DNA of 64,000 bases from Desulfuromonadaceae bacterium (GCA_028683855.1 JAQUHA010000019.1:12622-76621), one strand, 5' to 3'. Shown: positions 21,320 through 62,105, counted from the stretch's first letter. Notes: generated from the sequence alone by a model not told the origin. Numbers and translations: made by a program.

Positions 21320-21344
21320 AAACTGGACTCCAGAGGAGAGTTTG

Positions 21345-21719: not shown

Positions 21720-21755
21720 ATAAGCTCTTATCGTCCTGGTAGAATATCTATGAAG

Positions 21756-22853: not shown

Positions 22854-22900
22854 ATATAATTACCTTTTTTGCCATTCTGTTACTATTTGCCTAAGTTCTT

Positions 22901-23575: not shown

Positions 23576-23599
23576 AAATTGATCCTTCGGTCGGGAGAG

Positions 23600-24313: not shown

Positions 24314-24331
24314 ACGTGATCCAACCAATTC

Positions 24332-25120: not shown

Positions 25121-25157
25121 ATTATCTCCCCTTCAAATATAGTTTTAATTATTAAAA

Positions 25158-25895: not shown

Positions 25896-25915
25896 AATTA
25901 TTTCCCTCTTGGTTT

Positions 25916-26662: not shown

Positions 26663-26666
26663 AAAG

Positions 26667-45365: not shown

Positions 45366-45555
45366 TTGATCAAACCCCCATCGAATTATTATGGCTGCAA
45401 CTTGTAGCACAAAAACATTATTTTCGTAATAACGAAATATGAGGCTCTATTACTTCTCTCTGCAGACAGAACCTGCCGTAAACTTGACATATAGCACCTT
45501 TACGTCTACAAGAAACCGGATAATTTATGTTTATATCTATTGTAACGGAGTATCG

Positions 45556-48398: not shown

Positions 48399-48487
48399 AT
48401 TTTGTTTTTTTACTGGAAAGATAAGCAATTAATACTTATAGTGTGCCAATCTGAGCTTAAAGCGGTACTAATATAAAGGAGTTTTTT

Positions 48488-49336
48488 ATGAAAAAGTTAT
48501 GTTTCCTGCTGATCTTTATTCTCGCCTGCGCAGTTTCTGCTTTTGCGGCATCTTCCTATGATAAGGATATAGTTATTCTGGATCAGAGCAGAAACGACAA
48601 GGTCACAGCTGTTTTTAAAGAGATGATTGATTCCTACAGAGAAAAGGATGTGAGAGGTTTTTTTGAGCATATATCTGAGGATCGTTTTATACAGGATTAC
48701 ATGACATTTCATGAAGCTATCTTACTTGATATGAGGATGCAGGATATCCTGAGCGTCGATACCTGGATAAATAAAATTACTACTGACGGCATTAAACGCT
48801 ACCTTTATGTACGATGGGAAAAGAGGTATGAAGACACTGATTCAGACAAAGAGATCAGGCAACTGGGTTCTTCAAGGTTTCTTTTTGATGAAATTGATGG
48901 TGAATATAAGCTTGTTGAGATTGCCGGAAACCACTTTTGGGGAGGAAGCCTCCCTGAATGGAAAGCCGAAGTTCCTCCAATCTCTGGTCAGGAAAAAGAG
49001 ACCACAGTAAATGCAGCTGGCTTGAATATTCCACCTACTGCCAACGCGGGGACGAATCAGCGGGTTGTTACCGGCTCTGTTGTAACTCTGGATGGTAGCG
49101 GCAGCAGCGATGCAAACGGCGATACACTAACTTATACTTGGAGCGTATCATCCAAGCCTGTCGGAAGCACAGTGGCGCTCTCAAGTAAATCAGCCGTAAC
49201 TCCTTCATTTACAACTAATTCCGTTGGTACTTATATTTTCAATTTGATAGTTAATGATGGGAAAGTTAATAGCACCATATCTACTGTCAAGGTAGTGGTA
49301 ATCGCAAATAGCGGTTCTATTTCGGTTGGTTGGTAA
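48488..49336 (+). CDS. secreted protein: NTF2-like N-domain plus one PKD/Ig-like domain
   Basis: Signal peptide MKKLCFLLIFILACAVSAFA. C-terminal ANAGTNQRVVTGSVVTLDGSGSSDANGDTLTYTWSV...GTYIFNLIVNDG is a PKD-type repeat. AAAGGAG Shine-Dalgarno. Confidence 0.75.
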   Translation: MKKLCFLLIFILACAVSAFAASSYDKDIVILDQSRNDKVTAVFKEMIDSYREKDVRGFFEHISEDRFIQDYMTFHEAILLDMRMQDILSVDTWINKITTDGIKRYLYVRWEKRYEDTDSDKEIRQLGSSRFLFDEIDGEYKLVEIAGNHFWGGSLPEWKAEVPPISGQEKETTVNAAGLNIPPTANAGTNQRVVTGSVVTLDGSGSSDANGDTLTYTWSVSSKPVGSTVALSSKSAVTPSFTTNSVGTYIFNLIVNDGKVNSTISTVKVVVIANSGSISVGW

Positions 49337-49347
49337 GGGAGAGACTA

Positions 49348-50643
49348 ATGAAATCAGGATATTTATTTACATTGGGCTTCCTGTTAGCAACGATGCTGAC
49401 ATTATTTACGGGATGCGGCTCAAATAGCGCAGCAACTAACACATCAAAAAGTAACGGCACAGGCTCGATAACCGCCAAACTGATATGGTCTGACGACAGC
49501 TCAATATCAGAAACCAAATCTACGGCTAAAGCAGCTGACGGTGTCGTTACTGTCAGGATTATTGTCTCTGGCACGGGCTTTTCAGATATACAGAAAGATT
49601 TCCCTGCCGTAGATACTGGCGGTGTTATCGATGAGGTGCCTGCCGGTGGCGGACGTACCCTAAAGGCACATGGGCTTAACTCAAACGGCGTTGTCATATA
49701 CCAAGGGGAAATTAGCAACATTACCGTTCAAGCCGGTAAGCTTACAGATATTGGGGTTATTGAAATGCTTTCAGTCAATGTTGCTCCGATGGCAAATGCA
49801 GGGGCAAATCAGAGTGTAATTTCAGGAAGCATTGTAACGCTCAACGGAAGCGGGAGCAGCGACGCGAATGGTGATTTGCTGACATATAGCTGGACTTTCT
49901 CCTCTAAGCCAGCAGGGAGCAGCACTGTTCTCTCAGCTACAGCTGTTGCGAATCCAACATTTACAGCCGATGTTACAGGCACATATATTTTGGCGTTGGT
50001 GGTTAACGACGGGACTGCAAACAGCTCTGCTGCCTCAGTTACAGTTACCGCGTCAGACGCCAACGCTGCTCCGGTGGCAAATGCAGGGGCAAATCAGAGT
50101 GTAATTTCAGGAAGCATTGTAACGCTCAACGGAAGCGGGAGCAGCGACGCGAATGGTGATTTGCTGACTTATAGCTGGGGTTTCACATCTAAACCTGTAG
50201 GAAGCAGCGCGACTCTCTCAGCTACAGCAGCCTTGAATCCCACCTTTACTGCGGATTTAGCTGGAAATTATGTTTTAAGTCTGGTGGTCAACGATGGGTC
50301 TTTAAATAGTGCAGCGGCTTCAGTCACCATTACAGCAACTATTGGCTATCCTGATCTGATTATCAGTAATATAGAATGTCCAATGTTTGGCGGTGCAATG
50401 CCAATCTCGTTCGATATTGTAAATACAGGATCTGTCACAGCATTGGGACCAATTGAATACGTCCCTTCTTGGAAGTATCTGTCAACTGACGTAAAAACAT
50501 ATATCGGCAATATCCCTGCAGATAGCTCAATTCACATTGAAACGCTTTCGGACTGCTATCCTGCTGACAATAATTCTGTCGTAGTCGATCCCAACAATCT
50601 CATAACAGAGTCAGACGAGACCAATAATTCAACCGGATTTTAA
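49348..50643 (+). CDS. lipoprotein: Ig-like domain, two PKD-like repeats and a C-terminal CARDB-like domain
   Basis: Lipobox LFTGC. Two copies of ANAGANQSVISGSIVTLNGSGSSDANGDLLTYSW. The C-terminus (PDLIISNIECP...VNTGSV...VVVDPNNLITESDETNNS) resembles CARDB. ATG at 49348 with GGGAG upstream. Confidence 0.75.
   Translation: MKSGYLFTLGFLLATMLTLFTGCGSNSAATNTSKSNGTGSITAKLIWSDDSSISETKSTAKAADGVVTVRIIVSGTGFSDIQKDFPAVDTGGVIDEVPAGGGRTLKAHGLNSNGVVIYQGEISNITVQAGKLTDIGVIEMLSVNVAPMANAGANQSVISGSIVTLNGSGSSDANGDLLTYSWTFSSKPAGSSTVLSATAVANPTFTADVTGTYILALVVNDGTANSSAASVTVTASDANAAPVANAGANQSVISGSIVTLNGSGSSDANGDLLTYSWGFTSKPVGSSATLSATAALNPTFTADLAGNYVLSLVVNDGSLNSAAASVTITATIGYPDLIISNIECPMFGGAMPISFDIVNTGSVTALGPIEYVPSWKYLSTDVKTYIGNIPADSSIHIETLSDCYPADNNSVVVDPNNLITESDETNNSTGF
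49782..50351 (+). repeat. tandem 285-bp (95-codon) PKD-module duplication with a nearly identical 5' segment
   Basis: 49790-49883 is identical to 50075-50168 (94 bp), flanked by single mismatches at 49789/50074 and 49884/50169. The rest of each unit has clearly diverged. Confidence 0.9.
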
Positions 50644-50654
50644 CAAGGAGTTAT

Positions 50655-52232
50655 ATGAAACGGCTAGTTGTTGTTACTTTACTGCTCTGCGCGACATCGG
50701 TTGCAGGAGCGGAAACTACGGGTAAAGAATGGCAGGCATCCGGACGCTTAACATCGGACATCACATTTACAAATATTGAAGGTGGCAGCAATACTGATAG
50801 TGATAGAGAGAAAACCACTCACAACGAGGAGTTGAATCTTAATCTGTCGGGTCCACTTTGGAATGGGGAGTCCGGCATTGAAACCAGGTCAAGAACCACC
50901 AACGATGACCGGATACAAAATGGTGGAGTTGAACTGCTCTATTTTAATTCCTATTACAGAGATAAAATATGGTTGGCGGAAGCTGGAGATGTTGCTGCGG
51001 GTCTTAATCCATACATTTACAGCGGAAGCCTAAAGGGATTGAAAGCCGTTTACAAATCACCCGAAAAGAGTGACGCCTGGCACTATACTCTGATTTCCGG
51101 ACTGAACAAAGGACTCTGGAGAGATTTTTATAGCAGCACCTCCGACGAAGCTCCAACCGCTTTTGCAGGCGCCTTTGAGGCTAAATATCTTTATGAAACT
51201 GCAAAGACAATCTCATTCAGCATTGCCGGACTACAGGAATATCTCTCCACTGTTAATAAAAATACCGCTGTTGCCGGTTCAGAAGGGTTTGGGGTTGGAC
51301 TCGATGGTTCATGGCGATTTAACAGACTTGTCACACTTTCAGGAAGAACGGCTTTGACCAGAGGAACAAATGACATAAGGAACGATATTCCAAACTCATA
51401 CCATAATGCCATACTCCTCAAACTACTCACAAAACCGATAGCTCCGCTCAGAAGCACTTTTACCTACCAACGGGTAAGCACCGGTTTCGTTTCTTTCGGT
51501 GGAAGCGGCAATCAAGATAAAGAGCAGATTGAAAATGCAACAACTTGGGATATAGGGTCATCACTCACGGCAAATCTGGATTTGAGAGCAAGCCGTGACA
51601 ATCTCAACGGAGATCTCGGTGCTACGCAGAAAAATTACTATGAATATGGACAACTAACCTACTATCCCGATTTTATCAAAAGAGGAGAGCTGACAATTCA
51701 AGCCTCAAATAAAGATGTCACCGGGAGGGGAACGGACAACAAGCAGTTGACTATCGGAACCGATTTCGCTCTTCGCAGCAAATCAGGATGGAGATATGGA
51801 GTTGGGTATGAGTTTGGTGACTATAGCGACAACAAGTCAGCAGTTTCTTCGCAGACGACTAATATCTACAGGGCGCTGCTTGGCTATAAACATAACCTGA
51901 CGGATGACCGCTCATACAGAATGACACTGAGCGCAAACTATCTCGACATCACGGCACAGCAAAATAAAATTGGTTTCAAAGTTGACGCTGGATATAGCCA
52001 CAACAGAAAGCTCTCCATGGATCTGCTTTATATGACAGACTATGTTGATATGCGTCAGAATGATGATACTGCAAACTCAACTTATCAGCTCAGAGCGAAT
52101 TACGTTCTGGATGAAAAAGGGAAGTATATTGTGCAGTTGTCACTTGAAGAGCGTGATATCGATGTGGATAATCAGCCCACAAGCAGCTACAACGAAACTA
52201 TCGGGAAGATTTCCCTCGCGATGAATTTTTAA
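50655..52232 (+). CDS. outer-membrane beta-barrel protein of unassigned family
   Basis: Signal peptide MKRLVVVTLLLCATSVAGA. Alternating-hydrophobic, Y/G/N/D/T-rich strand pattern throughout. C-terminal ...ISLAMNF (terminal Phe). AAGGAG Shine-Dalgarno. No POTRA-like or plug-like N-domain visible. Confidence 0.7.
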   Translation: MKRLVVVTLLLCATSVAGAETTGKEWQASGRLTSDITFTNIEGGSNTDSDREKTTHNEELNLNLSGPLWNGESGIETRSRTTNDDRIQNGGVELLYFNSYYRDKIWLAEAGDVAAGLNPYIYSGSLKGLKAVYKSPEKSDAWHYTLISGLNKGLWRDFYSSTSDEAPTAFAGAFEAKYLYETAKTISFSIAGLQEYLSTVNKNTAVAGSEGFGVGLDGSWRFNRLVTLSGRTALTRGTNDIRNDIPNSYHNAILLKLLTKPIAPLRSTFTYQRVSTGFVSFGGSGNQDKEQIENATTWDIGSSLTANLDLRASRDNLNGDLGATQKNYYEYGQLTYYPDFIKRGELTIQASNKDVTGRGTDNKQLTIGTDFALRSKSGWRYGVGYEFGDYSDNKSAVSSQTTNIYRALLGYKHNLTDDRSYRMTLSANYLDITAQQNKIGFKVDAGYSHNRKLSMDLLYMTDYVDMRQNDDTANSTYQLRANYVLDEKGKYIVQLSLEERDIDVDNQPTSSYNETIGKISLAMNF

Positions 52233-52257
52233 GCTAGTACATCAAGAGGGGATTCCC

Positions 52258-55200
52258 ATGCGCAAGATCATATCTTATCTGTTTCTTACAGTGCTGTTAT
52301 TTTACGGAGAGACAAACGCAACCACATTAAATGTTGCACAAATGGCCTCTATCAGTCCGGTAATTGTGACCAATGCGGGATTGATTGATGAGATTATGAT
52401 CAATGGGAGGCGCTTTGATTCCCTCAACAAACGAACAATTGAATTTTACAAAGATGATCTGAAAGATGGAAAAGTTCTTATTACCGGACTTCTGGAGCGC
52501 GAAGATGGGGGCGCTTTGGATGATTTACAGGTCGAGATAACCACAGATGGAGGGACAACATGGAGCCGCGCGGCGGGTCATGCCAACTGGGAATGGTTTT
52601 TCCAACCTCAAACAGGCAAAACGTACGAGTTCTCGATCCGCGTTGTTCAGGCGATCCCTGCCAGCGATCTGATAATTCCCGTACCTTCTACATTAAGTAT
52701 CGCCGGCTTTTCATTTACCCCCGACAGTAGTGCAACCCTGGTAGGCGGGCTTCTTAGCGGAACCGGAAAAATCACCATACCTTATTTTGAACAGTTCTCG
52801 CTGCCGCAGGATGTCGCTGTAGCTTTTGATGATTTGAATATTGCCAACGGCGTGGTGATTTCCGGTAAAGTGACCAGTCAGACCCCATTCACATTATCAA
52901 CAGATGCAGTAGATATTTCCGTCTCAAAGCTGGTTATCTCTGCGACACCTGATCACAGCACACTTGAAGGCAGCGCAAAACTGAAAGGTTTTCTCGGGGC
53001 ACTGCCCGTGCTACCCCTTGAAAACGGCAGCAAACTCCTGGTGAGTTCGTTTCAGGCTAGCGTAGCGGTAAACTCGCAATCATTCGTTATCTGGCAGGAA
53101 AAAGGGGTCAAGCTCACGCTTGGCGATGGCTCCGTCCGTGTGAATTATAATCTGGGTGACAGCAAAACGACGCTTGACCTGAGCGGTTTAACGACTTCGG
53201 TAAAATTCGGTACTCTGCTGACTGATGCCGCCAACACGAGTGACTCGATAACGGCATCTCTTTTATCGGCAGTCGGAACGGTATATTCTCTCCGGACAGT
53301 TGGTCAGGCATATCTGCTGAATAGTGCGATTACCCTGAACAACGCGGCAATGAGCATTGATATTGCCGATATCAATGCGCCAAAAATTACCTTGAACAGC
53401 TCAATAGATTTTTCCGGTTACAACCACGCAATCATAAAGAAACTTACCGGTGGCACCATTACTGCGGATATTTCCAAAACCGGATTTAGCGCTGCTATCA
53501 GTTTTGCCAACGCATTGGCTCCGGCAACTCTACTTAATCGCGGCGGGCTGGACAAAAATGTCCGGATGGAATTCACTGCTCCCCCTGAATTCTCAATTTC
53601 CATAGCGAAAAACGGTGATCTACCGACATTTAATCTTAACGGTTTATCAGCCAAACTGAACTTCGGCGATCTTTTGACAAACGCCAAGGCGCAAGGTGCT
53701 GAAACGGCAACATCGGTGGTGGCGAATATTGCCTTTGCTGCGGACTCTGCAAGTAATGTGATCCTCTCTTTTCCTGAAACCGCAGTTGCCTATCTGCCTG
53801 GAGGGAAATTTGGGCTGGCCGGTATTAACGCAAGTTTGAATCCTGGGGATCTTTCCGTGTCAATCAATGCCAGCGCCAATCTCGATGCCTATGCTGATCC
53901 GGTTTTCAACGCCTTCAGCGGGACAGCTGTACGGGTTGCGGTCGCCTCGACGGGGGTTACGGCAAGCCTGACGGCTGACAGCGGAATAGATCCAATCGTT
54001 CTTATGAATCGGGGCGGGGCTGGAAAAGATGTGCTTCTCACTGTTAACGGGACTCCATCGGCAACTCTGACGATCGGCGGCAATACGGTCGATTTAAGCT
54101 TTGGCGCATTAAACGCCTCGGTAAAATTTGGCGATATCCTTCAAAGCGCCAAAGGCTCTTTTGCACCTGTTGTAGCAAGCCTGCAAAGCGCCGCCGATAA
54201 TGCGCGACAGTACACACTTTCCTTTCCAAACGGTCCTCTCTATCTCCTTGGCAGTTCGTTCGGGCTTGAAGGGGTAAGTGCAGGCTTCAACCTCGGCGAC
54301 AAAACGATCAGCCTGACCGGCAGCGCCAATCTCCAGGATTACAGCGCTCCGCTGCTGAAAGCCATGAGCGGCTCCACGCTCAGCGCGACCATCGCCCCGG
54401 CAGGTTTTTCCGCCACACTGACGCCAGTCGGCCAATTAGCCCCCTTCACCGTTCTTGATCGCGGCGGTTCCGGTAAAGACGTGCAGGTCGCCTTTACCAC
54501 TCCACCAACGGTTCGTCTCACTCTACGGGGTGGGGATATTGATTTTGGCTTGGACGGCGGGTCTGCCGAGATCCGTTTTGGTGATCTGCTGGAGCAAGCC
54601 GTTGCTACGTTGACCGCACAGCAAAACGAAGCACGGCAGACAATTAGCGGTATGTATAACTGGAGTCTGGAAGGGCGCAGAAAGCTTATTGACGAGTCCA
54701 AAATGTTTCTTAGCTCTCTCAAAGGATCACTTGATCTGAAAACCATAACCACTCCGAAGATCTCTTTCAATGCTCAGGCGGATCTGCATGAATACGGCGG
54801 ACTGTTCTCCACGGTAACCAATGCGCAGCTCAGCAACGCGCTTATTTCAGGGGCAGGAGTAAGCGGCACACTCGCCGTCAATATCGGCAGTATTGATATC
54901 TGGCAGGAAAAAGGGGTCAAGGTCGTATTTACTGAAAATCCATCGCTCCGTTTTGCTCTTGGCGGCAGCGGATTTTCACTCGGCTTTGCAAGCATCGCCG
55001 GAAATCTGAATTTTGGGGCATTACTGGAAAATGCCGTCGCGGAAATCAGGAGAGCTACTCCTGACACCAGTGAGCTTGAAGTTGATGCCAAAAATGCTAC
55101 AACCACGGCGACTGCCGAGATGCTCTGGAATATCAACGGAGCTAAAAAGCTTGCAGGGAGCACCGTCTCTCTACAAAACCTTGCCGGTACGCTTAATATT

Positions 55201-58200
55201 GCCGATATTTCCGCCCCTTCGATTAGCCTTAATGCCACGGCAGATCTTAGTCAATACGGTGGAATATTAAGCAGCGTCAGCAGCGCCGCTCTTGAAGGTG
55301 TAACCATCTCGAAAACCGGCTTGAAAGGGACATTGTCTACCTCGCTCCGGGAGATCGATATCTGGAAAGACAAAAACGTCAAGCTCTCTCTGACCACCCC
55401 CGCGAAGTTCAAGCTGGATGTGACAAGTAGCGGCGTCAGCGTTGGCATTGGTGAGCTGAATGGTTCGGTTGATTTTGGCGATCTGCTGAACAATGCCACG
55501 GCACAGCTTAACACTGTCAGCAACGGAGTGCATGGCTGGGCACTGAATGAGGTACATGCCCTCGATAGTGGCTCTATCAAGTTACAGAACCTGGCGGGGC
55601 AGGTCGATCTTACTGATTTGAGCAAACCCCGGATCGGGATGAACGGGCAGATTGATCTGAAGGGTTATGGCGGTATTTTCAGTCAGCTTGAACCGGTTGC
55701 CGTAGAGAATGCAACCATTACTCTGGATGGCTTCAAGGCCGATGTCAGCGTGCCGCTGGTGGCGGTTGATATCTGGGAGACAAAAAAAGTCAAGGTGAAC
55801 TTTACCGGCGCAACACCGCCACTCCTGAATATGGCCGTGACACGCGACGGATTGAAAGCGGGGCTTTCTAATCTGAGCGCGAAACTTCAGTTCGGTGATC
55901 TGCTCGGCGGTATTGAGGCGGAGCTGACGCAGGCAGTAGGTCTGCCAACGCAGCCATCGCTTTATAAATGGAGTGTGCCAGATGTTCCCAATCCCCGAAC
56001 CCTGCTCACCGACAACCTGGGTAGTGTAACCGTTTCAGGTATAAACGGGACATTCAACCTGAGTGACCTGTCCAATCCTGCCATTGTCTTTGACGCCGCC
56101 GCCGATTTCAGCAGCTATTCGTTACCAGGATTCACTCTTAGTACGGTTGCGCTTGACGATGCCCGGATTTCTCGCAGCGGCATCGAATGGAATATGAGGG
56201 TGCAGGGGGAAACAACCATTACGGTTCTCGATCTTGGCGAAGAGAGCCAGGATGTCCGTCTCGTCCTTGCCGGATCGACCACTGCCGGAACAAACGGCGT
56301 AGGAGCTGACGGGAGTGCAAAGCTCTATTTCGGAGCGTTGTTCGACAGCGTGGAGCCGGTCGTTCTCGTGAAGGATGGGAATAATTTCACCTTTCCCGCC
56401 ATCAATAAAACATTCACCTATATCAAAGCAGGGCAGAGCATCAGTTTTTCCGACCTTTACGGAACAGTTACAAAAGTTGGAGACGCCTATAAAATCTCGC
56501 TTGGCGGCACGGCAGAGCTCCAATCAACCCTCCTTTCTAAAATCGGAACGCAGAGCATAAATTTCAGCGACCTCGAAATCAGCAGCGCCGGTTTCAAAGG
56601 GTCTATAAATGCAACATGGATCAATCAAACCTTTGATATTTTAGGCGGCAAAGCAAAAATTGTCCTCAGGAGCGCAACTGTTGCTATCGATTCAAGCGCC
56701 ACGCTGCCAATCAAGCTGACAGCGCTTGACGGAAGCCTGGATCTGACTCCTCTGTTTGCCGCCGGGCAGTCAGCACTGGGCGCACTCTCCATGAACGGAG
56801 CGCAGCTTGGCTGGACTCTGCCAAACGCATCGTTCACTTACAAAGATAATTTCATCTTCAAAAACCTGAGCGGCACTCTTGATCTTGACAACCTGACGAC
56901 ACCATCAATCGGTTTGTCAGGTAACTTCAGCTACAAAGGTATTACCGGCCTCGACCTTGCGCTGAACAACTTTTCCGTCACCGCTGCCGGTTTGAGCGGC
57001 ACGGTTGCCCTCGCCAACGGGGCTATTGCTGTTGGAACTCTTAGTGGGCTTAAGCTGACATCCTTGAGCGCGACCTTCGGGGGTACGGATACTATCTCCG
57101 GCTCAGTTGCCCTAACTTACAGTAACAACAGCTTTCTCGGTTCCGGAAAAGCTGTGAACCTGGCGTTTGGGGCAAACATAAGTGAGAACGGCATTGGCGA
57201 CTTGACGCTCAGCGGCACCGCTCCAAATGTAGAAATTGCGAATTTTGCCAAACTGATATTTACAAATGTCGCTGCAACACCTGCGTGGGAAAACTTCTCT
57301 ATCACCCTCGACGGCACCGTAAAACCGGACAATCCTCTATTTAAAGCTGCGAGCAGTCTTGAGTTAAAAGGACTTAAAATATCAAGCAGTGGTATTAGTG
57401 TTGAGGGCGCAGGAATGGAATTTGACGTCAGCGGCGCCAATGCTTTGCTGGGTGGTTTTCCTCTGAGTATCAGCAAACTCGGTATCGGATTTGATGATAG
57501 TACATTTTACCTGAGTGCTAAAGGTGAGCTTAGCCTGGATATTGCGAAAGCCGGCGCCGGTGTCAAACTAAAAAGCAACGGTGGACTGAGCGTTGACAAT
57601 ATCTCCATTGCAGTCACTCAACCGGCAGTGAGTTTTGGCGGTGAAGTTGCCTGGTATAGCAGCGACCCGACTTTTGGCAATGGTTTTGGTGCGTCGGGAC
57701 TTTCTCTCAAAATAGCTGAGATGTTCAGCGTAACCGGTACATTTAAAACAGGTACATCAACAGGCGGGCGATATTGGATGGCCAAAGCACAGGGGGGCCT
57801 TGGAGGCGGAATCCCGATGACACCGCTGCCACTTAGCATATACGAAGCAGGCGGCGGTGCAGCGTATAACATGACGTATAGAGAAGCGGAAAAAGATTTT
57901 GTGCCGGGCAACGCTAAGAACGTCGTCATTATCCTTTCATCCCTGATCGGTACTAACGATGTCGGTTATACTTGGCATGGCCAGTTTGAAATAGCGTTGG
58001 ACAGTGCAAAGCAGATTACCGCCACGGGAGACAGCTACCTGCTCAGCGAAAAAGATAAAAAACCTGGCGATAGAAAGATCTCGGCAATAGCGACATTGAC
58101 GTCCGACAGTTTCCAGATCAACGGAGATGCCAACATTACCTACGAAATTTTCAACTTTAACGGTAATCTGGATATCCTGATGAGCTCAAGCGCCCAGCAT

Positions 58201-60156
58201 GTTTACGTCGGGACAAACAGAGACATGGTCAGTATCAGCCTTGTTCCTTTGGGGCTAAGTGCGCGTGGCTACTTCATGATCGACAACAGGCAGCTTGCTT
58301 TTGGGGCACTGTATGAACTGAAGAAGAGATTGTCTCTCGACTGGTGGGGACCAAATCCGTGGGTTGCCATTGACGCTGAAGCGGGAGCTGAAGGGCGAAT
58401 CTATTACAATCCGTTTTTCATGGATCTTGGCGCACATGCAGCAGTAACGCTTTCAGCCGGATATGGCAGCGTATTCAGCGGCTCACTCGGTATGGGCATG
58501 GATCTCCGTTTTAGAGCGCCGGATCCGACTTATGCCAAGGTGAAGCTTAAATTCTATCTGCCGGTTTACGATGGCTGGGTTTCATTTACCACCTATTTCC
58601 CTTCAAAACCCGCCAGCGTCAGCAGTGACAGCTATCCTCCGTTAATCAACGAGATCGAACCGGGTCAGGATAGTGATGTTTCGCTCTTCCCTGCTCTTAC
58701 CGTATCGACGACACTTGCAAGCGATGGCACGCTGTTTGCCAAAGATGACAGCATTGAGGAAAAAGACAAAATATACCACTCTGAGGTAGTGGGGCTGAAA
58801 TTAACCGACACGCAGACAAATCAGAATATTCCGTTGGCAACAAAACTGGCAGCGGGAAACGAGCATGAATTCATCCCACGCCAACTGCTGGCTCCCGGTC
58901 ACAGCTACACCTTCAGTGGAAAAGTTAATCTCCTGAAAAATAATAAAGTTGTCAAAACTGACAGTATCAATAAAACCTTTGCTACAACTACGGCTGATGA
59001 ACTGAAATTTGACGAGATCATCGAACTGGTTACCCCGCTGCCATTGGCCGTCAATGTAATGAATGAAGTACAAATCGTAATGAAGTATAAGGACATCATC
59101 AATTACCTGCCGAGAAGGGAGCAGGATCCGCATGTGCAGTACCGGCTGAAGGTTACCAACCAGAAAGACGAGGTAATCACCGGAACGACTTCCTATCATG
59201 AGGCGACGCGCAGCGTGATTTTCCAGCCAGGCAAGGATCTGGTGCGCGCAGTCTATTATTGCCGCTATGAGGCGACTGGAGAAGTCAGGAATACGGTCAA
59301 AAACGACAGGGGAGAGTATCTGAATCCGTTCAAAAACTTCCAGGTAGATAGTGTGCAGAACGCATCTTCGGGCAATTCCTCTGCTCTTTCTCTTGCAGGC
59401 AGTGCCACTGCACATACAGCTCATCTGGACCGTTATACCTACTATACCCATGACCGCTACAAGATCACAATTACTGACCCTGTCGAGAAAGTGGTTTATT
59501 TTTCGACATTTACAGCGAAGCACAGCCTGACCGCCACAGAAAGCCTACAACGATTTGATGGGATGAATGAGCGGCTCGATCCCTCTCTTTCAATAATGAC
59601 GGATACGGGTGATGCCAAACGGGTCTACCTGAAAGTCAACTCCGCTTTGGGCGCTATCGGCATCGAAGAGGGGATTGGCCTTGGTTATCGTCTGACAACA
59701 ACATGGCAGGTTGAGGGTGGAGCAGATGTTATCATCACCGATAACCATGAGGCATACTGGCCGGACAAATATATGCTCGATCTCGGCGTCAGGAAAAACT
59801 TCACGCTTCCGGTCAGCGCTCTCAAAAGTGCTGTTATCGAGTATTACAACACAACCACCAACGCGGCTCTGCTTACGCAAGTAGTGCGGATAGTCAACGG
59901 CGGAACGACAAACCAGAGTCAGCATGAAGCGGATATGCAAGGTGTAGCCGATAGAGTGAAAGGGACCTCTGGCAGGGGGCAGCTTACTGGCAGTGTGGCG
60001 GGCGCAGGTGGTTTTACAGGTGTAGGTGGCATGGCTGGTTCCGGTGGTTTTGCCGGCTCGGGCGGTGGCGGTTTGGCTGGAGGAGGCCTGCAGGGGGTGG
60101 AAGGCATTGGTGGTGATATTGGAGCGCAATTAGATTTTCAGGGGGGTGGACTATGA
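52258..60156 (+). CDS. giant (2,632-aa) secreted repeat protein of unknown function
   Basis: Uninterrupted 7.9-kb ORF with a GAGGGG Shine-Dalgarno and signal peptide MRKIISYLFLTVLLFYGETNA. Asp-box TTDGGTTW (52540-52563). At least 8 modules of about 150 aa. Ig-like C-terminal domains. Gly-rich tail. Apparently only one Cys. Confidence 0.88.
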   Translation: MRKIISYLFLTVLLFYGETNATTLNVAQMASISPVIVTNAGLIDEIMINGRRFDSLNKRTIEFYKDDLKDGKVLITGLLEREDGGALDDLQVEITTDGGTTWSRAAGHANWEWFFQPQTGKTYEFSIRVVQAIPASDLIIPVPSTLSIAGFSFTPDSSATLVGGLLSGTGKITIPYFEQFSLPQDVAVAFDDLNIANGVVISGKVTSQTPFTLSTDAVDISVSKLVISATPDHSTLEGSAKLKGFLGALPVLPLENGSKLLVSSFQASVAVNSQSFVIWQEKGVKLTLGDGSVRVNYNLGDSKTTLDLSGLTTSVKFGTLLTDAANTSDSITASLLSAVGTVYSLRTVGQAYLLNSAITLNNAAMSIDIADINAPKITLNSSIDFSGYNHAIIKKLTGGTITADISKTGFSAAISFANALAPATLLNRGGLDKNVRMEFTAPPEFSISIAKNGDLPTFNLNGLSAKLNFGDLLTNAKAQGAETATSVVANIAFAADSASNVILSFPETAVAYLPGGKFGLAGINASLNPGDLSVSINASANLDAYADPVFNAFSGTAVRVAVASTGVTASLTADSGIDPIVLMNRGGAGKDVLLTVNGTPSATLTIGGNTVDLSFGALNASVKFGDILQSAKGSFAPVVASLQSAADNARQYTLSFPNGPLYLLGSSFGLEGVSAGFNLGDKTISLTGSANLQDYSAPLLKAMSGSTLSATIAPAGFSATLTPVGQLAPFTVLDRGGSGKDVQVAFTTPPTVRLTLRGGDIDFGLDGGSAEIRFGDLLEQAVATLTAQQNEARQTISGMYNWSLEGRRKLIDESKMFLSSLKGSLDLKTITTPKISFNAQADLHEYGGLFSTVTNAQLSNALISGAGVSGTLAVNIGSIDIWQEKGVKVVFTENPSLRFALGGSGFSLGFASIAGNLNFGALLENAVAEIRRATPDTSELEVDAKNATTTATAEMLWNINGAKKLAGSTVSLQNLAGTLNIADISAPSISLNATADLSQYGGILSSVSSAALEGVTISKTGLKGTLSTSLREIDIWKDKNVKLSLTTPAKFKLDVTSSGVSVGIGELNGSVDFGDLLNNATAQLNTVSNGVHGWALNEVHALDSGSIKLQNLAGQVDLTDLSKPRIGMNGQIDLKGYGGIFSQLEPVAVENATITLDGFKADVSVPLVAVDIWETKKVKVNFTGATPPLLNMAVTRDGLKAGLSNLSAKLQFGDLLGGIEAELTQAVGLPTQPSLYKWSVPDVPNPRTLLTDNLGSVTVSGINGTFNLSDLSNPAIVFDAAADFSSYSLPGFTLSTVALDDARISRSGIEWNMRVQGETTITVLDLGEESQDVRLVLAGSTTAGTNGVGADGSAKLYFGALFDSVEPVVLVKDGNNFTFPAINKTFTYIKAGQSISFSDLYGTVTKVGDAYKISLGGTAELQSTLLSKIGTQSINFSDLEISSAGFKGSINATWINQTFDILGGKAKIVLRSATVAIDSSATLPIKLTALDGSLDLTPLFAAGQSALGALSMNGAQLGWTLPNASFTYKDNFIFKNLSGTLDLDNLTTPSIGLSGNFSYKGITGLDLALNNFSVTAAGLSGTVALANGAIAVGTLSGLKLTSLSATFGGTDTISGSVALTYSNNSFLGSGKAVNLAFGANISENGIGDLTLSGTAPNVEIANFAKLIFTNVAATPAWENFSITLDGTVKPDNPLFKAASSLELKGLKISSSGISVEGAGMEFDVSGANALLGGFPLSISKLGIGFDDSTFYLSAKGELSLDIAKAGAGVKLKSNGGLSVDNISIAVTQPAVSFGGEVAWYSSDPTFGNGFGASGLSLKIAEMFSVTGTFKTGTSTGGRYWMAKAQGGLGGGIPMTPLPLSIYEAGGGAAYNMTYREAEKDFVPGNAKNVVIILSSLIGTNDVGYTWHGQFEIALDSAKQITATGDSYLLSEKDKKPGDRKISAIATLTSDSFQINGDANITYEIFNFNGNLDILMSSSAQHVYVGTNRDMVSISLVPLGLSARGYFMIDNRQLAFGALYELKKRLSLDWWGPNPWVAIDAEAGAEGRIYYNPFFMDLGAHAAVTLSAGYGSVFSGSLGMGMDLRFRAPDPTYAKVKLKFYLPVYDGWVSFTTYFPSKPASVSSDSYPPLINEIEPGQDSDVSLFPALTVSTTLASDGTLFAKDDSIEEKDKIYHSEVVGLKLTDTQTNQNIPLATKLAAGNEHEFIPRQLLAPGHSYTFSGKVNLLKNNKVVKTDSINKTFATTTADELKFDEIIELVTPLPLAVNVMNEVQIVMKYKDIINYLPRREQDPHVQYRLKVTNQKDEVITGTTSYHEATRSVIFQPGKDLVRAVYYCRYEATGEVRNTVKNDRGEYLNPFKNFQVDSVQNASSGNSSALSLAGSATAHTAHLDRYTYYTHDRYKITITDPVEKVVYFSTFTAKHSLTATESLQRFDGMNERLDPSLSIMTDTGDAKRVYLKVNSALGAIGIEEGIGLGYRLTTTWQVEGGADVIITDNHEAYWPDKYMLDLGVRKNFTLPVSALKSAVIEYYNTTTNAALLTQVVRIVNGGTTNQSQHEADMQGVADRVKGTSGRGQLTGSVAGAGGFTGVGGMAGSGGFAGSGGGGLAGGGLQGVEGIGGDIGAQLDFQGGGL
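52750..56345 (+). repeat. protein-level tandem array of about 150-aa modules marked by the motif [KNRQDY]-F-G-x-[LI]-[LF]
   Basis: The motif Phe falls at aa 317, 469, 624, 774, 919, 1073, 1212 and 1358 (nt 53206, 53662, 54127, 54577, 55012, 55474, 55891, 56329), giving spacings of 139-155 aa. The units are diverged at nucleotide level. More degenerate units appear to continue to about aa 1750. Confidence 0.8.
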
Positions 60157-62105
60157 CAAGCGCGTTTCTGAAAATGGCGGTTTCGGCTCTCTTTATTATC
60201 GGCATGGCAGGGGATCTTTATGCAGAACCGCCCGCAACGCTTACCGCATACGCAAAGTTCAGCAATAATCAGGTTCAGCTCAAGTGGCTGATCCCGAAAT
60301 ACTCGGATGCCAACAGTTATACTATCTACAGGGGCTCAAAGGGAGAGCCGGGGCGGTTGCTGGCAACGCTCACTCCTGTTAGCGACGATGCATTAACGGC
60401 GATGGGATTCGACAAGGATTACCGCGAGTTCATTCATCCGTACAAAGACGTCAAAACCCTTGACGACAGTATTATGGTTGCCAAGACAGCAAAGCAGGTG
60501 GACGCCTTCAGAATACTCCGTCTTATGCAGGACAACAGGTTTGCCAAGCATCTCGGCCAATATTTTGTTGATACCGATGTTAAGCCGGGCATGACGTACC
60601 ATTACCGGATTGAACTGCTCAACAATGATAAAACGATTGCCCGAGCATCGATTGACGTAGCAACGAAGGAAACTTCCGGATCAACTGTTATGTGGGTTCA
60701 GGCGCAGGATACGGAAAAAGGCGTTACATTGAACTGGGAAAACAGTGCTGAATTTTCGTTCTATCATCTGTATAGAAAGCTCGACGGAGAGAAAGAGCAC
60801 ACCCGGTTGACGAAACAGCCGATTTATGTGGCGCCGTCATCATCCGTCGAGACCAGATACCTTTATCAGGATACAGCACTGAAGGAGGGGCAAAGGGCGC
60901 ATTATTATGTCCGCAAAGTCGATCAGTTCGGTGACGAAGGCAAAGCCTCCTACCAGGTTTCCGGTGAAATCAAAGTGGACAGGAAACCGGCAAGGGTGAC
61001 TAATATCTTTGTGAAAAACAGCGACAGGAAGATCTCCCTCCGCTGGAAAAAAGGGGAAAATATTCTGGGATACAACATCTACAGAAGTCTCAATCACAAA
61101 ACCGGATTCAAGAAGATCAACAGCGATCCCGTCAAAGAAGAAGCATACTTTGATCACGACTTCAGCACTGGCAAGAGTTACTACTACATTGTAACAGCCG
61201 TAAATATGCACGGCGAGTCCACTCCATCAGACGCGATGCTTGCCTATGCTCGTGACGTAACACCACCTGATGCGCCAACCGCCTTGACTTTCAGTGTCAC
61301 GCCGGGAACCGCGCATTTGAAATGGCAGGGAGTTGCAACCCCTGATCTGCTCGGATACCGCGTCTATATGTCGATGGACAGGCAGGCTGAGTCCTGGGCA
61401 ATGATTACCAAAAAAGAGGTGGCAGAGCCGTCTTATCTGCATGAACGAGCAAAGACACTCAGCCGTCACAATTACTATTACCGGGTAACAGCCGTGGACA
61501 AGGCGTTCAATGAGAGCGCTCCCTCTAACATTATTGAGGTCAAACTCCCGGATGTTACAAAGCCCGAACAGCCGGTCGTTGACCAGTTTCACGTCTATCC
61601 CGGAAAAATCCTGATCCAGTGGAGCCAGATAGCGCTTTATGATTTCAGTCACTACAATATTTACCGGAAAACGGGTGCTGCCTTAACCAAACTCAACGAT
61701 GTTCCGCTCAAGGTACTTCTTTATACCGATGCCAAGCCAGACTTGGGATTGAACGAATATGTCGTCACCTCGGTTGATCAAAGCGGCAATGAATCGGATA
61801 GAAAGGTCTCACTGGCTGTGCACGCCCACGATGGAGAGCCGGCGACTGTTTCGGGTTTATCAGTAAAACCCGTGACAAAGGGGGTTGAACTGTCATTTGT
61901 GTGTGGCGATGAGGATTATACAGGGTTTGAGGTGTATCGAAGCAGCGGCAGCGATAAAAAATATCATAATATCTCCGGATTCCGGAAAGGAACCCGGTTT
62001 GTCGATACTCGTGTAGTACATAAGCAGGTATATTTTTATATGATTAAAGCATTTGATCGTTCCGGGAATGTCAGAGAAAGCAGAAGTGTTAAAATAAAGT
62101 ATTGA
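60153..62105 (+). CDS. secreted protein with about six fibronectin type III-like domains
   Basis: Signal peptide. FN3 end-motifs recur: HYRIELLN, HYYVRKVDQFGDEG, YYYIVTAVNMHGES, YYYRVTAVDKAFNES, EYVVTSVDQSGNES, YFYMIKAFDRSGNV. The ATG overlaps the giant gene's stop (ATGA). Confidence 0.8.
   Translation: MTSAFLKMAVSALFIIGMAGDLYAEPPATLTAYAKFSNNQVQLKWLIPKYSDANSYTIYRGSKGEPGRLLATLTPVSDDALTAMGFDKDYREFIHPYKDVKTLDDSIMVAKTAKQVDAFRILRLMQDNRFAKHLGQYFVDTDVKPGMTYHYRIELLNNDKTIARASIDVATKETSGSTVMWVQAQDTEKGVTLNWENSAEFSFYHLYRKLDGEKEHTRLTKQPIYVAPSSSVETRYLYQDTALKEGQRAHYYVRKVDQFGDEGKASYQVSGEIKVDRKPARVTNIFVKNSDRKISLRWKKGENILGYNIYRSLNHKTGFKKINSDPVKEEAYFDHDFSTGKSYYYIVTAVNMHGESTPSDAMLAYARDVTPPDAPTALTFSVTPGTAHLKWQGVATPDLLGYRVYMSMDRQAESWAMITKKEVAEPSYLHERAKTLSRHNYYYRVTAVDKAFNESAPSNIIEVKLPDVTKPEQPVVDQFHVYPGKILIQWSQIALYDFSHYNIYRKTGAALTKLNDVPLKVLLYTDAKPDLGLNEYVVTSVDQSGNESDRKVSLAVHAHDGEPATVSGLSVKPVTKGVELSFVCGDEDYTGFEVYRSSGSDKKYHNISGFRKGTRFVDTRVVHKQVYFYMIKAFDRSGNVRESRSVKIKY

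What the first reader, a model, noticed from the sequence alone, without database searches (positions are those of the whole stretch)
48488..62105. Five-gene envelope operon built around a 2,632-aa repeat protein: candidate undescribed surface assembly or secretion system
Five same-strand genes are packed with gaps of 11, 11 and 25 nt and a 4-nt overlap, each with its own Shine-Dalgarno. Every product carries a signal peptide or lipobox. They are an NTF2-like/PKD protein, an Ig/PKD x2/CARDB lipoprotein, a 525-aa beta-barrel outer-membrane protein ending in Phe, the 2,632-aa repeat protein and a protein with about six FN3 domains. I see none of the usual routes for exporting or anchoring a giant adhesin-like protein. 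There are no T1SS ABC/MFP genes, no TpsB/POTRA transporter or TPS domain, no autotransporter barrel at the giant protein's C-terminus, and no sortase or exosortase sorting signal. A dedicated barrel, a lipoprotein and Ig-like accessory proteins beside one giant substrate suggest a self-contained module whose mechanism no characterised system explains.
Basis: partly seen in the sequence, partly recalled or inferred. Interest (0 to 1): 0.8.

Follow-up and report, generated by a model that had tools for sequence, protein, structure and literature searches.

The report
Uncharacterised giant-protein and outer-membrane barrel module
Five co-oriented genes encode a 276-kDa all-beta protein, a plug-less 26-strand outer-membrane barrel and Ig-like helper proteins; the set recurs in other bacteria, matches no characterised export or anchoring system, and may be a new way of mounting a giant protein on the cell envelope.

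Summary
Five tightly packed + strand genes (48488-62105) each have a Shine-Dalgarno site and a Sec signal peptide or lipobox.

The gene set is a local variant of a conserved four-gene module. I found that module in 23 loci from Campylobacterota and Desulfuromonadales MAGs:
- a secreted protein with a private N-domain plus CARDB (split and PKD-expanded here into g1 and g2);
- a ~525-aa barrel;
- a 2,600-3,700-aa giant;
- a six-FN3 protein.

AlphaFold2 gives a confident 26-strand barrel with short loops and no plug. Its nearest solved folds are MtrB and the FimD/PapC usher pores.

The giant has an Asp-box Ig-like head and 10-11 repeats of ~150 aa. These are followed by a core distantly related to DUF6603, Ig-like C-terminal domains and a Gly-rich tail. 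It has no Pfam, NCBIfam or PDB match.

The triad of core-domain protein, g5-family FN3 protein and homologous barrel recurs in very distant loci. The core domain defines about 1,800 unnamed protein clusters.

T1SS, TPS, autotransporter, usher, MtrCAB, TamAB, Lpt, T9SS and sortase membership tests all fail.

Relatives often carry an N-terminal FecR domain beside CHASE2 sensors. My best reading (about 0.45) is a giant fibre held at or threaded through the barrel, with its N-terminus in the periplasm. The function is untested.

The parts
48414..48442 (+). Promoter-like site (TGGAAA-17-TATAGT) in the 89-nt gap before g1
   Evidence: This is a consensus match only, and the number of sites in the region is no higher than in shuffled sequence, so the evidence is weak.
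48488..49336 (+). g1: secreted 282-aa protein. It has a signal peptide, a family-private N-domain (res 22-170, nt 48551-48997) and one PKD domain (nt ~49024-49299).
   Evidence: The N-domain is 45-66% identical to the first gene of every related locus. It has 23 detectable relatives, all orthologues. It has no Pfam or PDB match.
49348..50643 (+). g2: 431-aa lipoprotein (lipobox LFTG|C). It has an unassigned N-terminal region, two PKD domains (49776-50051 and 50061-50336) and a CARDB-like C-terminal domain (~50350-50631).
   Evidence: The CARDB part aligns with the C-terminal half of the single first gene of relatives.
50655..52232 (+). g3: 525-aa outer-membrane beta-barrel. The model has 26 strands, no plug or periplasmic domain, inter-strand connections of 16 residues or fewer, and a C-terminal Phe.
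   Evidence: AlphaFold2 gives pLDDT 85.3 and pTM 0.72. The top Foldseek PDB hits are MtrB 6r2q_B (E 4.6e-11) and then FimD/PapC. There are 46 homologue clusters. The generic OMP_b-brl family matches 23 of 31 members, and MtrB_PioB matches 1 of 31.
52258..60156 (+). g4: the 2,632-aa giant protein (276 kDa, one Cys), with a signal peptide at its N-terminus
   Evidence: It has no Pfam, NCBIfam or PDB sequence match.
52372..52662 (+). g4 head: an Asp-box Ig-like domain (res ~39-135) with the motif ...TTDGGTTWS.... It is the best-conserved part of the giant.
   Evidence: The same domain ends the short FecR proteins that sit beside the barrel in L014, L015 and L002.
52960..57402 (+). g4 repeat region: 10-11 copies of a ~150-aa all-beta unit (res 235-1715)
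   Evidence: Self-comparison and an iterated HMM. The AlphaFold2 model of the last two units shows 8-10 strands per unit.
57205..58887 (+). g4 core (res 1650-2210): a DUF6603-related all-beta region with invariant G, W, Y, D and H positions
   Evidence: DUF6603 matches 7 of 14 orthologues, best E 3.5e-10. The window copy itself is below detection. A profile search finds 1,814 representative clusters.
58855..60012 (+). g4 C-terminal region (res 2200-2585): predicted beta-sandwich (Ig-like) domains, poorly conserved
60013..60153 (+). g4 Gly-rich tail, ending in a short strand-like motif (...AQLDFQGGGL)
   Evidence: A comparable tail and end motif (for example xEFNLGGxF) occur in 10 of 13 giants.
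60153..62105 (+). g5: 650-aa secreted protein with six FN3-like units. It overlaps the g4 stop by 4 nt.
   Evidence: Full-length homologues follow the giant in all complete related loci. They also accompany distant core-domain proteins, with E values from 3e-27 to 2.7e-67.

Best explanation
The five genes form one operon. It encodes a lineage-specific version of a conserved and so far uncharacterised outer-membrane module.

**Shown**
- All products are Sec-exported.
- g3 is a plug-less 26-strand barrel with short loops.
- g4 is a Cys-poor, all-beta giant. It has a conserved Asp-box head, 10-11 beta-rich repeats, a DUF6603-related core, Ig-like C-terminal domains and a Gly-rich tail.
- g5 is a six-FN3 protein.
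- g1 plus g2 correspond to the single N-domain+CARDB gene of relatives.
- Barrel, giant and FN3 protein co-occur from Campylobacterota and Desulfuromonadales to distant phyla.

**Inferred mechanism**
- The wide barrel cannot stay empty. It serves as the dedicated outer-membrane sheath or portal for the giant.
- The giant's head docks at the barrel complex, together with the highly conserved g1 N-domain.
- The N-terminal end stays in the periplasm. In many relatives a FecR domain sits there, beside CHASE2 sensors.
- The C-terminal ~2,500 residues are passed through the barrel and fold outside as a fibre tens of nanometres long. It would act as an adhesin or contact sensor.
- The topology would resemble an inverse autotransporter or LapA, but with a separate barrel.
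- The FN3 protein and the CARDB/PKD proteins would act as an obligatory partner, chaperone or decoration.
- The window copy lacks the FecR head and any neighbouring CHASE2 gene, so it would be a purely structural or adhesive version.
For: - **Operon anatomy:**
- **Barrel fold:** 26 strands, pLDDT 85, and no loop longer than 16 residues. The nearest folds are MtrB and then the FimD/PapC pores. Both are barrels that hold a protein in their lumen.
- **Barrel lumen:** at least 12 invariant charged or polar residues lie inside predicted strands (R78, R80, E109, D112, R221, R273, E290, R374, E498, R500, E514 and others). This points to a conserved lumen surface.
- **Close synteny:** conserved in 23 loci.
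- **Distant triad:** it is found in L024, L026, L029 and, in part, L030. The g5 homologues score E 3e-27 to 2.7e-67. The barrel profile-profile comparison gives probability 95.5% and E 1.5e-8 over 482 columns.
- **Head-domain logic:** the Asp-box domain is the best-conserved part of the giant. Beside the barrel it also occurs on short FecR proteins with no payload (L014) or a different payload (L015).
- **FecR/CHASE2 link:** FecR heads occur in more than 10 giants, and CHASE2 genes are adjacent in L001, L004/5, L006/7, L014 and L015.
- **Published precedents:** FecR-CHASE2 pairing (PMC5192318) and CHASE2 sensing through an outer-membrane barrel (PMC13001267).
- **Passenger-like composition:** one Cys in 2,632 residues, no transmembrane segment, and a repetitive beta-rich sequence.
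Against: - No result shows surface exposure, or any physical contact between the giant and the barrel.
- The giant-fragment model is only moderate (pLDDT 67, pTM 0.34). Its overall shape is therefore unknown.
- No co-folding could be run.
- The window copy lacks both FecR and CHASE2. The topology argument is therefore borrowed from relatives.
- FecR domains may not always be periplasmic. L002 has a FecR protein with a TbpB-like domain next to a Slam gene.
- Two DUF6603-type relatives (L025, L027) lack signal peptides and barrels. The core domain is therefore not intrinsically an outer-membrane device.
- All carriers are MAGs, and there are no expression or phenotype data.
Confidence: 0.45

Rival explanations
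1. Periplasmic or envelope-spanning structure. The giant stays inside the outer membrane and uses the barrel complex only as its outer-membrane anchor. It would serve as a scaffold, or as a bridge for hydrophobic cargo, in the manner of TamB/AsmA or the Lpt bridge with LptD/LptE. In that picture the g1 N-domain plugs the barrel as LptE plugs LptD.
For: - The top Foldseek hits of the giant fragment are LptD and the ApoB100 beta-belt. Both are amphipathic antiparallel sheets that handle lipid.
- LptD also has 26 strands and appears among the barrel hits.
- The g1 N-domain (~145 aa) is the most conserved element and is about the size of LptE.
- The repeat period of ~150 aa resembles that of repeating beta-groove units. 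That comparison rests on my own knowledge and was not tested.
Against: - The Foldseek TM-scores are only about 0.1.
- There are no AsmA, TamB/DUF490, LptD or LptE Pfam matches.
- hhalign against E. coli TamB gives probability below 1%.
- The giant has a cleavable signal peptide rather than an inner-membrane anchor.
- The barrel has no POTRA or beta-jellyroll domain.
- A protein of 2,600-3,700 residues with 10-11 repeats would be far longer than the periplasm is wide (inference).
- The payload is variable or absent in L014 and L015, which fits display better than a conduit.
Confidence: 0.2
2. Primarily a trans-envelope signalling device. The barrel, together with the N-domain/CARDB protein, receives an external cue and passes it through a FecR-Asp-box protein to CHASE2 kinases or HD-GYP enzymes. 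The giants would be elaborated sensor heads. The window copy would be a degenerate or rewired version.
For: - Mini-variants consist of a barrel, a FecR-Asp-box protein of 347 or 948 aa, and CHASE2 (L014, L015).
- FecR heads are present on many giants, with CHASE2 genes directly downstream.
- Published precedents are the FecR-CHASE2 biofilm operon (PMC5192318) and CHASE2 sensing through the outer-membrane barrel NsrA (PMC13001267).
- Two-component and c-di-GMP genes flank several loci.
Against: - The window operon has no FecR domain. No CHASE2 gene lies in the 64-kb window or in the 5.6 kb beyond it.
- Several other giants also lack FecR (L003, L016, L018, L020, L023).
- The cross-phylum triad (barrel, core protein, FN3 protein) shows no such link in the loci examined.
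- A 276-kDa repeat protein is an expensive sensor.
Confidence: 0.15
3. Secretion pore with a released substrate. The barrel exports the giant into the medium or matrix, in the manner of two-partner secretion, and does not retain it. The giant would act as a matrix or S-layer-like component.
For: - The partnership of a separate barrel with a giant beta-rich, Cys-poor substrate resembles TpsB/TpsA in logic.
- A Gly-rich tail with a terminal strand-like motif in 10 of 13 giants could be a recognition or release element.
Against: - There is no TPS domain, POTRA domain or Omp85 barrel.
- The conserved N-terminal head, often with FecR, argues for a retained end.
- The C-terminal motif is absent from the Desulfuromusa-type giants.
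Confidence: 0.12
4. No system at all. The genes are unrelated envelope genes that happen to be adjacent. The barrel is a generic porin, and the giant is handled by machinery encoded elsewhere.
For: - No direct interaction data exist.
- The barrel hits only the generic OMP_b-brl family.
- The promoter and terminator scans are uninformative.
Against: - Gene order is conserved in 23 loci, down to 23% identity for the giant.
- The triad recurs across phyla with rearranged order.
- The genes are translationally coupled, with an 11-25 nt spacing or a 4-nt overlap.
Confidence: 0.03

Closest known systems
MtrB/PioB-type porin sheath of porin-cytochrome complexes (MtrCAB, PDB 6r2q)
   Same: Both are 26-strand barrels without a plug or periplasmic domains, of the kind that enclose a partner protein. 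MtrB is the best Foldseek match (E 4.6e-11, TMq 0.51). One orthologue matches Pfam MtrB_PioB at E 6.6e-6. MtrCAB also includes a surface lipoprotein partner.
   Different: The operon has no multihaem cytochrome and no CXXCH motif. The window barrel does not match MtrB_PioB. At 525 aa it is shorter than the MtrB chain (649 residues in the entry), and its loops are short. The partner is a 276-kDa haem-free beta protein.
Chaperone-usher pili (FimD/PapC ushers)
   Same: Both use a large barrel as a dedicated portal for Ig-like subunits. The usher pores are the second-best structural matches (E 1.8e-9 to 1e-7, TMq about 0.5).
   Different: Ushers have 24 strands plus a plug, an N-terminal domain and two C-terminal domains. 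This barrel has none of those. There is no Usher or PapD-chaperone Pfam match and no pilin-sized subunits.
Type V secretion: two-partner secretion, and inverse autotransporters (intimin/invasin)
   Same: Both involve a Sec-exported, Cys-poor, repetitive beta-rich giant with an outer-membrane barrel and no ATPase. The proposed topology (N-terminus in the periplasm, C-terminal passenger outside) is that of inverse autotransporters.
   Different: There is no TPS domain, no POTRA/Omp85 (16-strand) transporter, and no 12-strand beta-domain in the giant. The barrel is a separate 26-strand protein.
TamAB and AsmA-like bridges; LptD/LptE
   Same: Both pair a giant all-beta protein with an outer-membrane barrel. 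LptD also has 26 strands and is plugged by a small partner. LptD tops the weak Foldseek list for the giant fragment.
   Different: There are no family matches by Pfam or NCBIfam. hhalign against TamB gives probability below 1%. The giant has a cleavable signal peptide rather than a membrane anchor. The barrel is not Omp85 and has no jellyroll domain.
Pfam DUF6603 (PF20248), a family of unknown function
   Same: The giant's core (res ~1650-2210) is distantly related. Seven of 14 orthologues match, best E 3.5e-10.
   Different: The window protein itself does not reach detection. Only part of the Pfam model is covered (positions ~320-445 of 502). DUF6603 has no described function and no literature.
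FecR-CHASE2 signalling pairs, and NsrA-dependent CHASE2 sensing
   Same: Relatives of the giant start with a FecR domain and sit beside CHASE2 kinases or HD-GYP proteins. Both the FecR-CHASE2 pairing and a route from an outer-membrane barrel to CHASE2 are published (PMC5192318, PMC13001267).
   Different: The window operon has neither FecR nor CHASE2. No homology between NsrA and this barrel was tested.

Membership tests
Type I secretion adhesin (LapA/RTX type) | Adjacent ABC transporter, membrane-fusion protein and TolC-like gene | tested here: not met
   A Pfam survey of the ORFs of 200 aa or more tested across the 64-kb window, and the public contig's gene calls for about 5.6 kb beyond g5, found none of these genes.
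Type I secretion adhesin (LapA/RTX type) | No Sec signal peptide; C-terminal secretion signal with RTX GGxGxD arrays | tested here: not met
   The giant has an N-terminal signal peptide. There are only two isolated GGxGxD matches and no RTX Pfam hit.
Two-partner secretion (T5bSS) | TPS (haemagglutination activity) domain at the N-terminus of the substrate | tested here: not met
   There is no Pfam or NCBIfam match at E up to 0.1.
Two-partner secretion (T5bSS) | Omp85-type 16-strand transporter with POTRA domains | tested here: not met
   The barrel model has 26 strands and starts directly after the signal peptide. There are no POTRA, ShlB or Omp85 matches.
Classical or inverse autotransporter | Beta-domain within the same polypeptide as the passenger | tested here: not met
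   The giant has no Autotransporter or inverse-autotransporter beta-domain match. Its C-terminus is a Gly-rich tail.
Chaperone-usher pathway | Usher with a plug domain and N- and C-terminal periplasmic domains | tested here: not met
   The 525 residues are all used by 26 strands with short connections. There is no Usher Pfam match. Only fold-level similarity was found.
Chaperone-usher pathway | PapD-like periplasmic chaperone and pilin subunits | tested here: not met
   None was found among g1, g2 or g5.
MtrB/PioB porin-cytochrome complex | Barrel belongs to the MtrB_PioB family (PF11854) | tested here: inconclusive
   MtrB is the best structural match. PF11854 is hit by only 1 of 31 orthologues (E 6.6e-6) and not by the window protein.
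MtrB/PioB porin-cytochrome complex | Multihaem c-type cytochrome partner (CXXCH motifs) | tested here: not met
   There are no CXXCH motifs in any of the five proteins.
TamAB / AsmA-like | AsmA or TamB (DUF490) domains and an N-terminal membrane anchor | tested here: not met
   There are no Pfam matches. hhalign of the repeat and core profiles against E. coli TamB gives probability 0.3-0.4%. All close homologues have cleavable-type signal peptides.
LptD/LptE | LptD family barrel with an N-terminal beta-jellyroll; LptE lipoprotein | tested here: not met
   There are no LptD, OstA or LptE matches. The barrel has no N-terminal domain. The first-gene products of relatives are not lipoproteins.
Type IX secretion substrate | C-terminal Por_Secre_tail sorting domain | tested here: not met
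   No match was found in any of the five proteins.
Sortase / exosortase / rhombosortase substrates | C-terminal sorting signal with a transmembrane helix (LPXTG, PEP-CTERM, GlyGly-CTERM, MYXO-CTERM) | tested here: not met
   There is no hydrophobic segment outside the signal peptides. NCBIfam hits to sortase-dependent proteins cover only the PKD domains.
DUF6603 (PF20248) | Match to the Pfam model above its gathering score | tested here: inconclusive
   The window giant has no hit. Orthologues P0005 and P0002 reach 29.3 and 29.5 bits against a cutoff of 27, over a partial model. Seven of 14 core segments match.
The conserved triad defined here (core-domain protein + g5-family FN3 protein + ~530-aa barrel) | All three gene families adjacent on one strand | tested here: met
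   The window and 23 close loci carry all three. Distant loci L024, L026 and L029 carry all three, and L030 carries two.

The most novel reading that the evidence does not exclude
This is the founding example of an unrecognised, phylogenetically widespread outer-membrane pathway. A plug-less 26-strand barrel and an obligatory six-FN3 partner would translocate and hold Sec-exported giant beta-proteins that carry a DUF6603-like core. That would amount to a new secretion or anchoring 'type'. In many lineages the periplasmic end of the fibre is a FecR domain that reports to CHASE2 sensors. The assembly would then double as a surface-to-cytoplasm contact or mechano-sensing tether, and would supply the long-missing input for CHASE2 domains.
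Probability: 0.25. Interest if true: 0.88.

Novelty: categorically new. Interest (0 to 1): 0.72.

Why it matters
How diderm bacteria move and hold very large proteins across the outer membrane is known for only a handful of routes (types I, V and IX, and ushers). This module uses none of their components, yet it is conserved.

The barrel, the FN3 partner and the core-domain protein recur across distant phyla. The core domain marks roughly 1,800 protein clusters, and not one of them has a name or a paper.

If the barrel does sheath or export the giant, that is a new envelope mechanism. It would also explain a sizeable block of 'dark' giant proteins in sulfur- and metal-cycling bacteria, where attachment to minerals, electrodes or partner cells matters.

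The repeated FecR/CHASE2 wiring in relatives gives a concrete and testable candidate for what CHASE2 sensors listen to. If the reading is wrong, the work still defines three new protein families and their linkage.

Tried and rejected
- **Sequence searches.** Pfam, NCBIfam and PDB sequence searches of the giant and the barrel were empty. PDB profile searches with the core (A4) and the C-terminal region (A5) gave only chance hits.
- **g1 N-domain.** The PDB profile search hit only the CARDB part. A permissive Pfam scan found no NTF2/SnoaL-type family, so I dropped the 'NTF2-like' label.
- **Foldseek on the giant fragment.** Against PDB and the viral library it gave TM about 0.1 only. I rejected phage tail-fibre and eCIS-type readings for lack of any support.
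- **TamB relationship.** Tested by hhalign against E. coli TamB and rejected.
- **Haem, RTX and C-terminal anchor motifs.** Searched for; no haem motif or C-terminal anchor, and only two isolated GGxGxD matches with no RTX array.
- **Promoter and terminator scan.** No better than shuffled sequence.
- **Distant hits.** Pfam on seven distant core-domain hits found nothing. A cluster-name look-up returned only 'hypothetical protein'.
- **Literature.** Searches for DUF6603/PF20248 returned nothing. One general search was uninformative.
- **Single-sequence hhalign.** The barrel profile against single distant outer-membrane proteins was inconclusive. It became significant only after the three distant proteins were aligned together.

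Full report
**1. The observation**

The region 48488-62105 holds five + strand ORFs and no competing long ORFs. ORF listing starts g2 at TTG 49330. ATG 49348 is preceded by GGGAGAG and opens a textbook lipoprotein signal (MKSGYLFTLGFLLATMLTLFTG|C). The public contig's own gene call also gives 431 aa.

With that start the spacings are 11, 11 and 25 nt and a 4-nt overlap, exactly as reported. Every start has an AG-rich Shine-Dalgarno motif.

g1, g3, g4 and g5 have N-terminal basic-hydrophobic-small-residue signals. I judged these by eye, because no predictor was available. No other hydrophobic segment, haem motif or RTX array is present.

The 89-nt gap upstream contains one promoter-like site. 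No terminator follows g5. An RlmI-like methyltransferase gene starts 22 nt later.

**2. Domain content**

- Pfam confirms one PKD domain in g1, two in g2, and fn3 in g5. An iterated HMM resolves six FN3-like units in g5.
- CARDB in g2 is just below the Pfam threshold.
- The barrel and the giant match nothing in Pfam, NCBIfam or the PDB sequence set.
It has no Pfam or PDB match even at permissive thresholds. A profile search of 5.8 billion proteins finds only 23 relatives, all orthologues.

**3. The barrel**

With a 31-sequence alignment, AlphaFold2 gives a confident model (pLDDT 85.3, pTM 0.72). It has 26 beta-strands that begin right after the signal peptide. There is no plug or periplasmic domain, and no connection is longer than 16 residues.

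The best Foldseek PDB matches are MtrB of the MtrCAB complex (E 4.6e-11, TMq 0.51) and then the FimD/PapC usher pores. LptD ranks lower. These are barrels whose lumen is filled by a protein.

Many invariant charged residues fall inside predicted strands, which suggests a conserved lumen. At family level only the generic OMP_b-brl model is hit (23 of 31 members), and MtrB_PioB is hit by one orthologue.

**4. The giant**

It is 276 kDa, acidic, and has a single Cys. Its parts, in order, are:

- a signal peptide;
- an Asp-box Ig-like head (res ~39-135), the best-conserved segment;
- 10-11 copies of a ~150-aa unit between residues 235 and 1715;
- a unique core (res 1650-2210);
- poorly conserved Ig-like C-terminal domains;
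- a Gly-rich tail ending in a short strand-like motif, shared by 10 of 13 giants.

An AlphaFold2 model of residues 1381-2580 is moderate (pLDDT 67, pTM 0.34). It is almost entirely beta. Each repeat shows 8-10 strands, and the core shows long hairpins.

Foldseek finds only weak matches, with TM about 0.1. These include LptD, the ApoB100 beta-belt, ushers, and tandem Ig arrays such as filamin and cadherins. The viral library adds nothing.

DUF6603 (PF20248) matches the core in 7 of 14 orthologues, best E 3.5e-10, but not in the window copy. DUF6603 has no literature. hhalign against E. coli TamB is negative.

**5. Conservation of the neighbourhood**

Full-length giant homologues (23-42% identity) and barrel homologues (31-82% identity) lie on the same contigs. 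The context of 23 loci shows one order: [N-domain+CARDB protein, 260-350 aa] - [barrel] - [giant] - [FN3 protein, ~650 aa].

The loci come from two groups of MAGs:
- Campylobacterota: Sulfurospirillum, Sulfurimonas, Arcobacteraceae and Campylobacteraceae;
- Desulfuromonadaceae and Desulfuromusa.

The first gene of relatives combines the g1 N-domain with the CARDB domain that here ends g2. The window's g1 and g2 are therefore a split, PKD-expanded derivative. Its three PKD copies are at 49024-49299, 49776-50051 and 50061-50336. The conserved core is four genes, and the lipoprotein is lineage-specific.

**6. A wider triad**

A profile of the core was searched against 1.84 billion representative proteins. 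It finds 1,814 clusters at E up to 1e-3 and 934 at E up to 1e-10. The sampled hits have no Pfam domains and no names.

I inspected six distant contexts.

| Locus | Gene order |
|---|---|
| L026 | [1060][core 1262][530-aa OMP][717-aa FN3] |
| L024 | [core 1454][469][240][689 FN3-like][550-aa OMP] |
| L029 | [RCC1 1380][core 1711][675 FN3][549-aa OMP] |
| L030 | [753][core 2176][685 FN3] |

- L024 has T9SS-type neighbours.
- The FN3 proteins are full-length g5 homologues, with E values of 3e-27, 1e-40 and 2.7e-67.
- The three ~530-550-aa outer-membrane proteins, aligned together, match the barrel profile end to end. hhalign gives probability 95.5% and E 1.5e-8 over 482 columns.
- L025 and L027 carry DUF6603-type proteins with no signal peptide and no barrel. 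Their upstream ~1,500-aa neighbours contain g5-like FN3 repeats.

The barrel, the FN3 partner and the core-domain protein are therefore an old, cross-phylum association. The N-domain/CARDB protein and the Asp-box head belong to the Campylobacterota/Desulfuromonadales branch.

**7. Signalling link in relatives**

More than ten giants begin with a FecR domain and a helical linker before the Asp-box head. CHASE2 kinases or HD-GYP proteins lie directly downstream, or divergently adjacent, in L001, L004/5, L006/7, L014 and L015.

The head also occurs without the giant's body:
- In L014 the gene after the barrel is a 347-aa FecR-linker-Asp-box protein. It stops right after the head and is followed by CHASE2.
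- In L015 a 948-aa protein has the same head followed by short tandem repeats and an acidic, Gly-rich tail.
- L002 has both a 466-aa head-only paralogue and a giant.

The head is therefore the constant element beside the barrel, and the C-terminal payload varies.

Published work pairs periplasmic FecR-domain proteins with CHASE2 kinases (PMC5192318). It also shows CHASE2 cyclases sensing an external protein through an outer-membrane barrel, NsrA (PMC13001267).

The window copy has no FecR domain. No CHASE2 gene lies in the window or in the 5.6 kb beyond it.

**8. Mechanism**

*Shown:* Sec export of all parts; a wide plug-less barrel; an all-beta repetitive giant; conserved linkage of the gene families.

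*Inferred:*
- A 26-strand barrel with short loops must be filled.
- The constant head, with or without the very conserved g1 N-domain, docks there.
- The FecR-bearing N-terminus of relatives places that end in the periplasm.
- The variable C-terminal body would therefore be passed through the barrel and displayed, driven by folding outside as in type V systems.
- g5 would be an obligatory partner whose role is undefined.

I put this at about 0.45.

*Rivals:*
- a periplasmic scaffold or hydrophobic-cargo bridge (0.2);
- a primarily signalling device (0.15);
- a pore with a released substrate (0.12);
- coincidence (0.03).

**9. Comparison with known systems, and novelty**

Every membership test against T1SS, TPS, autotransporters, ushers, MtrCAB, TamAB, Lpt, T9SS and sortase-type sorting fails on at least one defining feature. 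DUF6603 and MtrB_PioB membership are inconclusive. The system works most like a porin sheath or an inverse autotransporter with a detached barrel, but it is a member of neither.

The component families are unnamed, there is no literature, and the triad recurs across phyla. I therefore rate it categorically new in kind, while stressing that its function is untested and all carriers are MAGs.

**10. Limits**

- I could not inspect model coordinates.
- There is no AlphaFold DB library.
- No signal-peptide predictor was available.
- Only six distant contexts were sampled.

Noticed in passing
window 49024-49299, 49776-50051, 50061-50336: Three PKD-domain copies span the g1/g2 boundary. The two in g2 are 81% identical at DNA level and lie 285 nt apart, which indicates a recent tandem duplication. 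The g1 copy is 60% identical. Relatives have no PKD domain at this position.
   Followed up: partly
L014 9213-13713; L015 16-6756: 'Mini' variants of the module consist of an N-domain+CARDB protein, the barrel, a short FecR-linker-Asp-box protein (347 aa or 948 aa) and a CHASE2 gene. No giant lies on the sequenced stretch. The contigs end there, so a giant elsewhere cannot be excluded.
   Followed up: partly
L015 2948-5794: The 948-aa FecR-Asp-box protein continues with six tandem ~17-aa repeats (KVITTEPIVVKFKSFGQ) and then a long acidic, Ser/Asp-rich, Gly-rich low-complexity tail.
   Followed up: no
L002 1494-5217: Just upstream of the module lie a TonB_C protein, a Slam-type gene (TPR + SlipAM) and a 513-aa protein that combines FecR with a TbpB-like C-lobe barrel domain. 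The last could be a Slam-exported, surface-located FecR protein, which would complicate the assumption that FecR is always periplasmic.
   Followed up: no
L025 3447-14837; L027 2067-16052: These DUF6603-type relatives (2,278 and 2,683 aa) have no recognisable signal peptide and no barrel gene. Each is preceded by a ~1,500-aa protein whose C-terminus carries g5-like FN3 repeats. The pairing of core domain and FN3 may therefore predate the outer-membrane context.
   Followed up: partly
L004 11720-21611 vs L005 11720-21611: Two near-identical Desulfuromusa contigs differ in how the giant gene is called. One has a single ORF of more than 3,680 aa. The other has it split into 2,129 + 1,552 aa, which suggests a frameshift or an assembly difference.
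   Followed up: no
window 54001-62000: G+C in the giant and g5 genes is 0.49-0.53, against 0.44-0.47 in the flanks. The window's barrel and giant are also closer to Campylobacterota homologues (barrel 53-55%, giant up to 42% identity) than to Desulfuromusa ones (barrel 33%, giant about 25%), although the host is a Desulfuromonadaceae MAG. This may reflect horizontal transfer, or it may reflect the Gly/Ala-rich composition.
   Followed up: no
window 62128-63333: An RlmI-like PUA + SAM methyltransferase gene starts 22 nt after g5 with no terminator-like site between them. It may be co-transcribed. It is not conserved next to the module in other loci.
   Followed up: partly
window 4320-10655 and 18482-30998: The rest of the window carries a capsule-export pair (Wza-like Poly_export/SLBB, and Wzi) and a flagellar cluster (FlgL/K, FlgI, FlgH, FlgA, FlgG, FlgF, FlhG, FlhF, FlhA). 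A Tll0287-like/PAS/GGDEF sensor lies at 38189-39895 (-), and an OmpA-family coiled-coil protein at 44523-45410 (-).
   Followed up: no
window 60013-60153 and the equivalent ends of L001, L002, L006, L010, L011, L017, L019, L020: The giants end in a Gly-rich tail followed by a short alternating hydrophobic motif that often ends in Phe (AEFNLGGAF, EQFNLGAKF, VKIIIDTGF; here AQLDFQGGGL). The motif is reminiscent of an outer-membrane-protein beta-signal or a donor strand. It is absent from the Desulfuromusa-type giants.
   Followed up: partly
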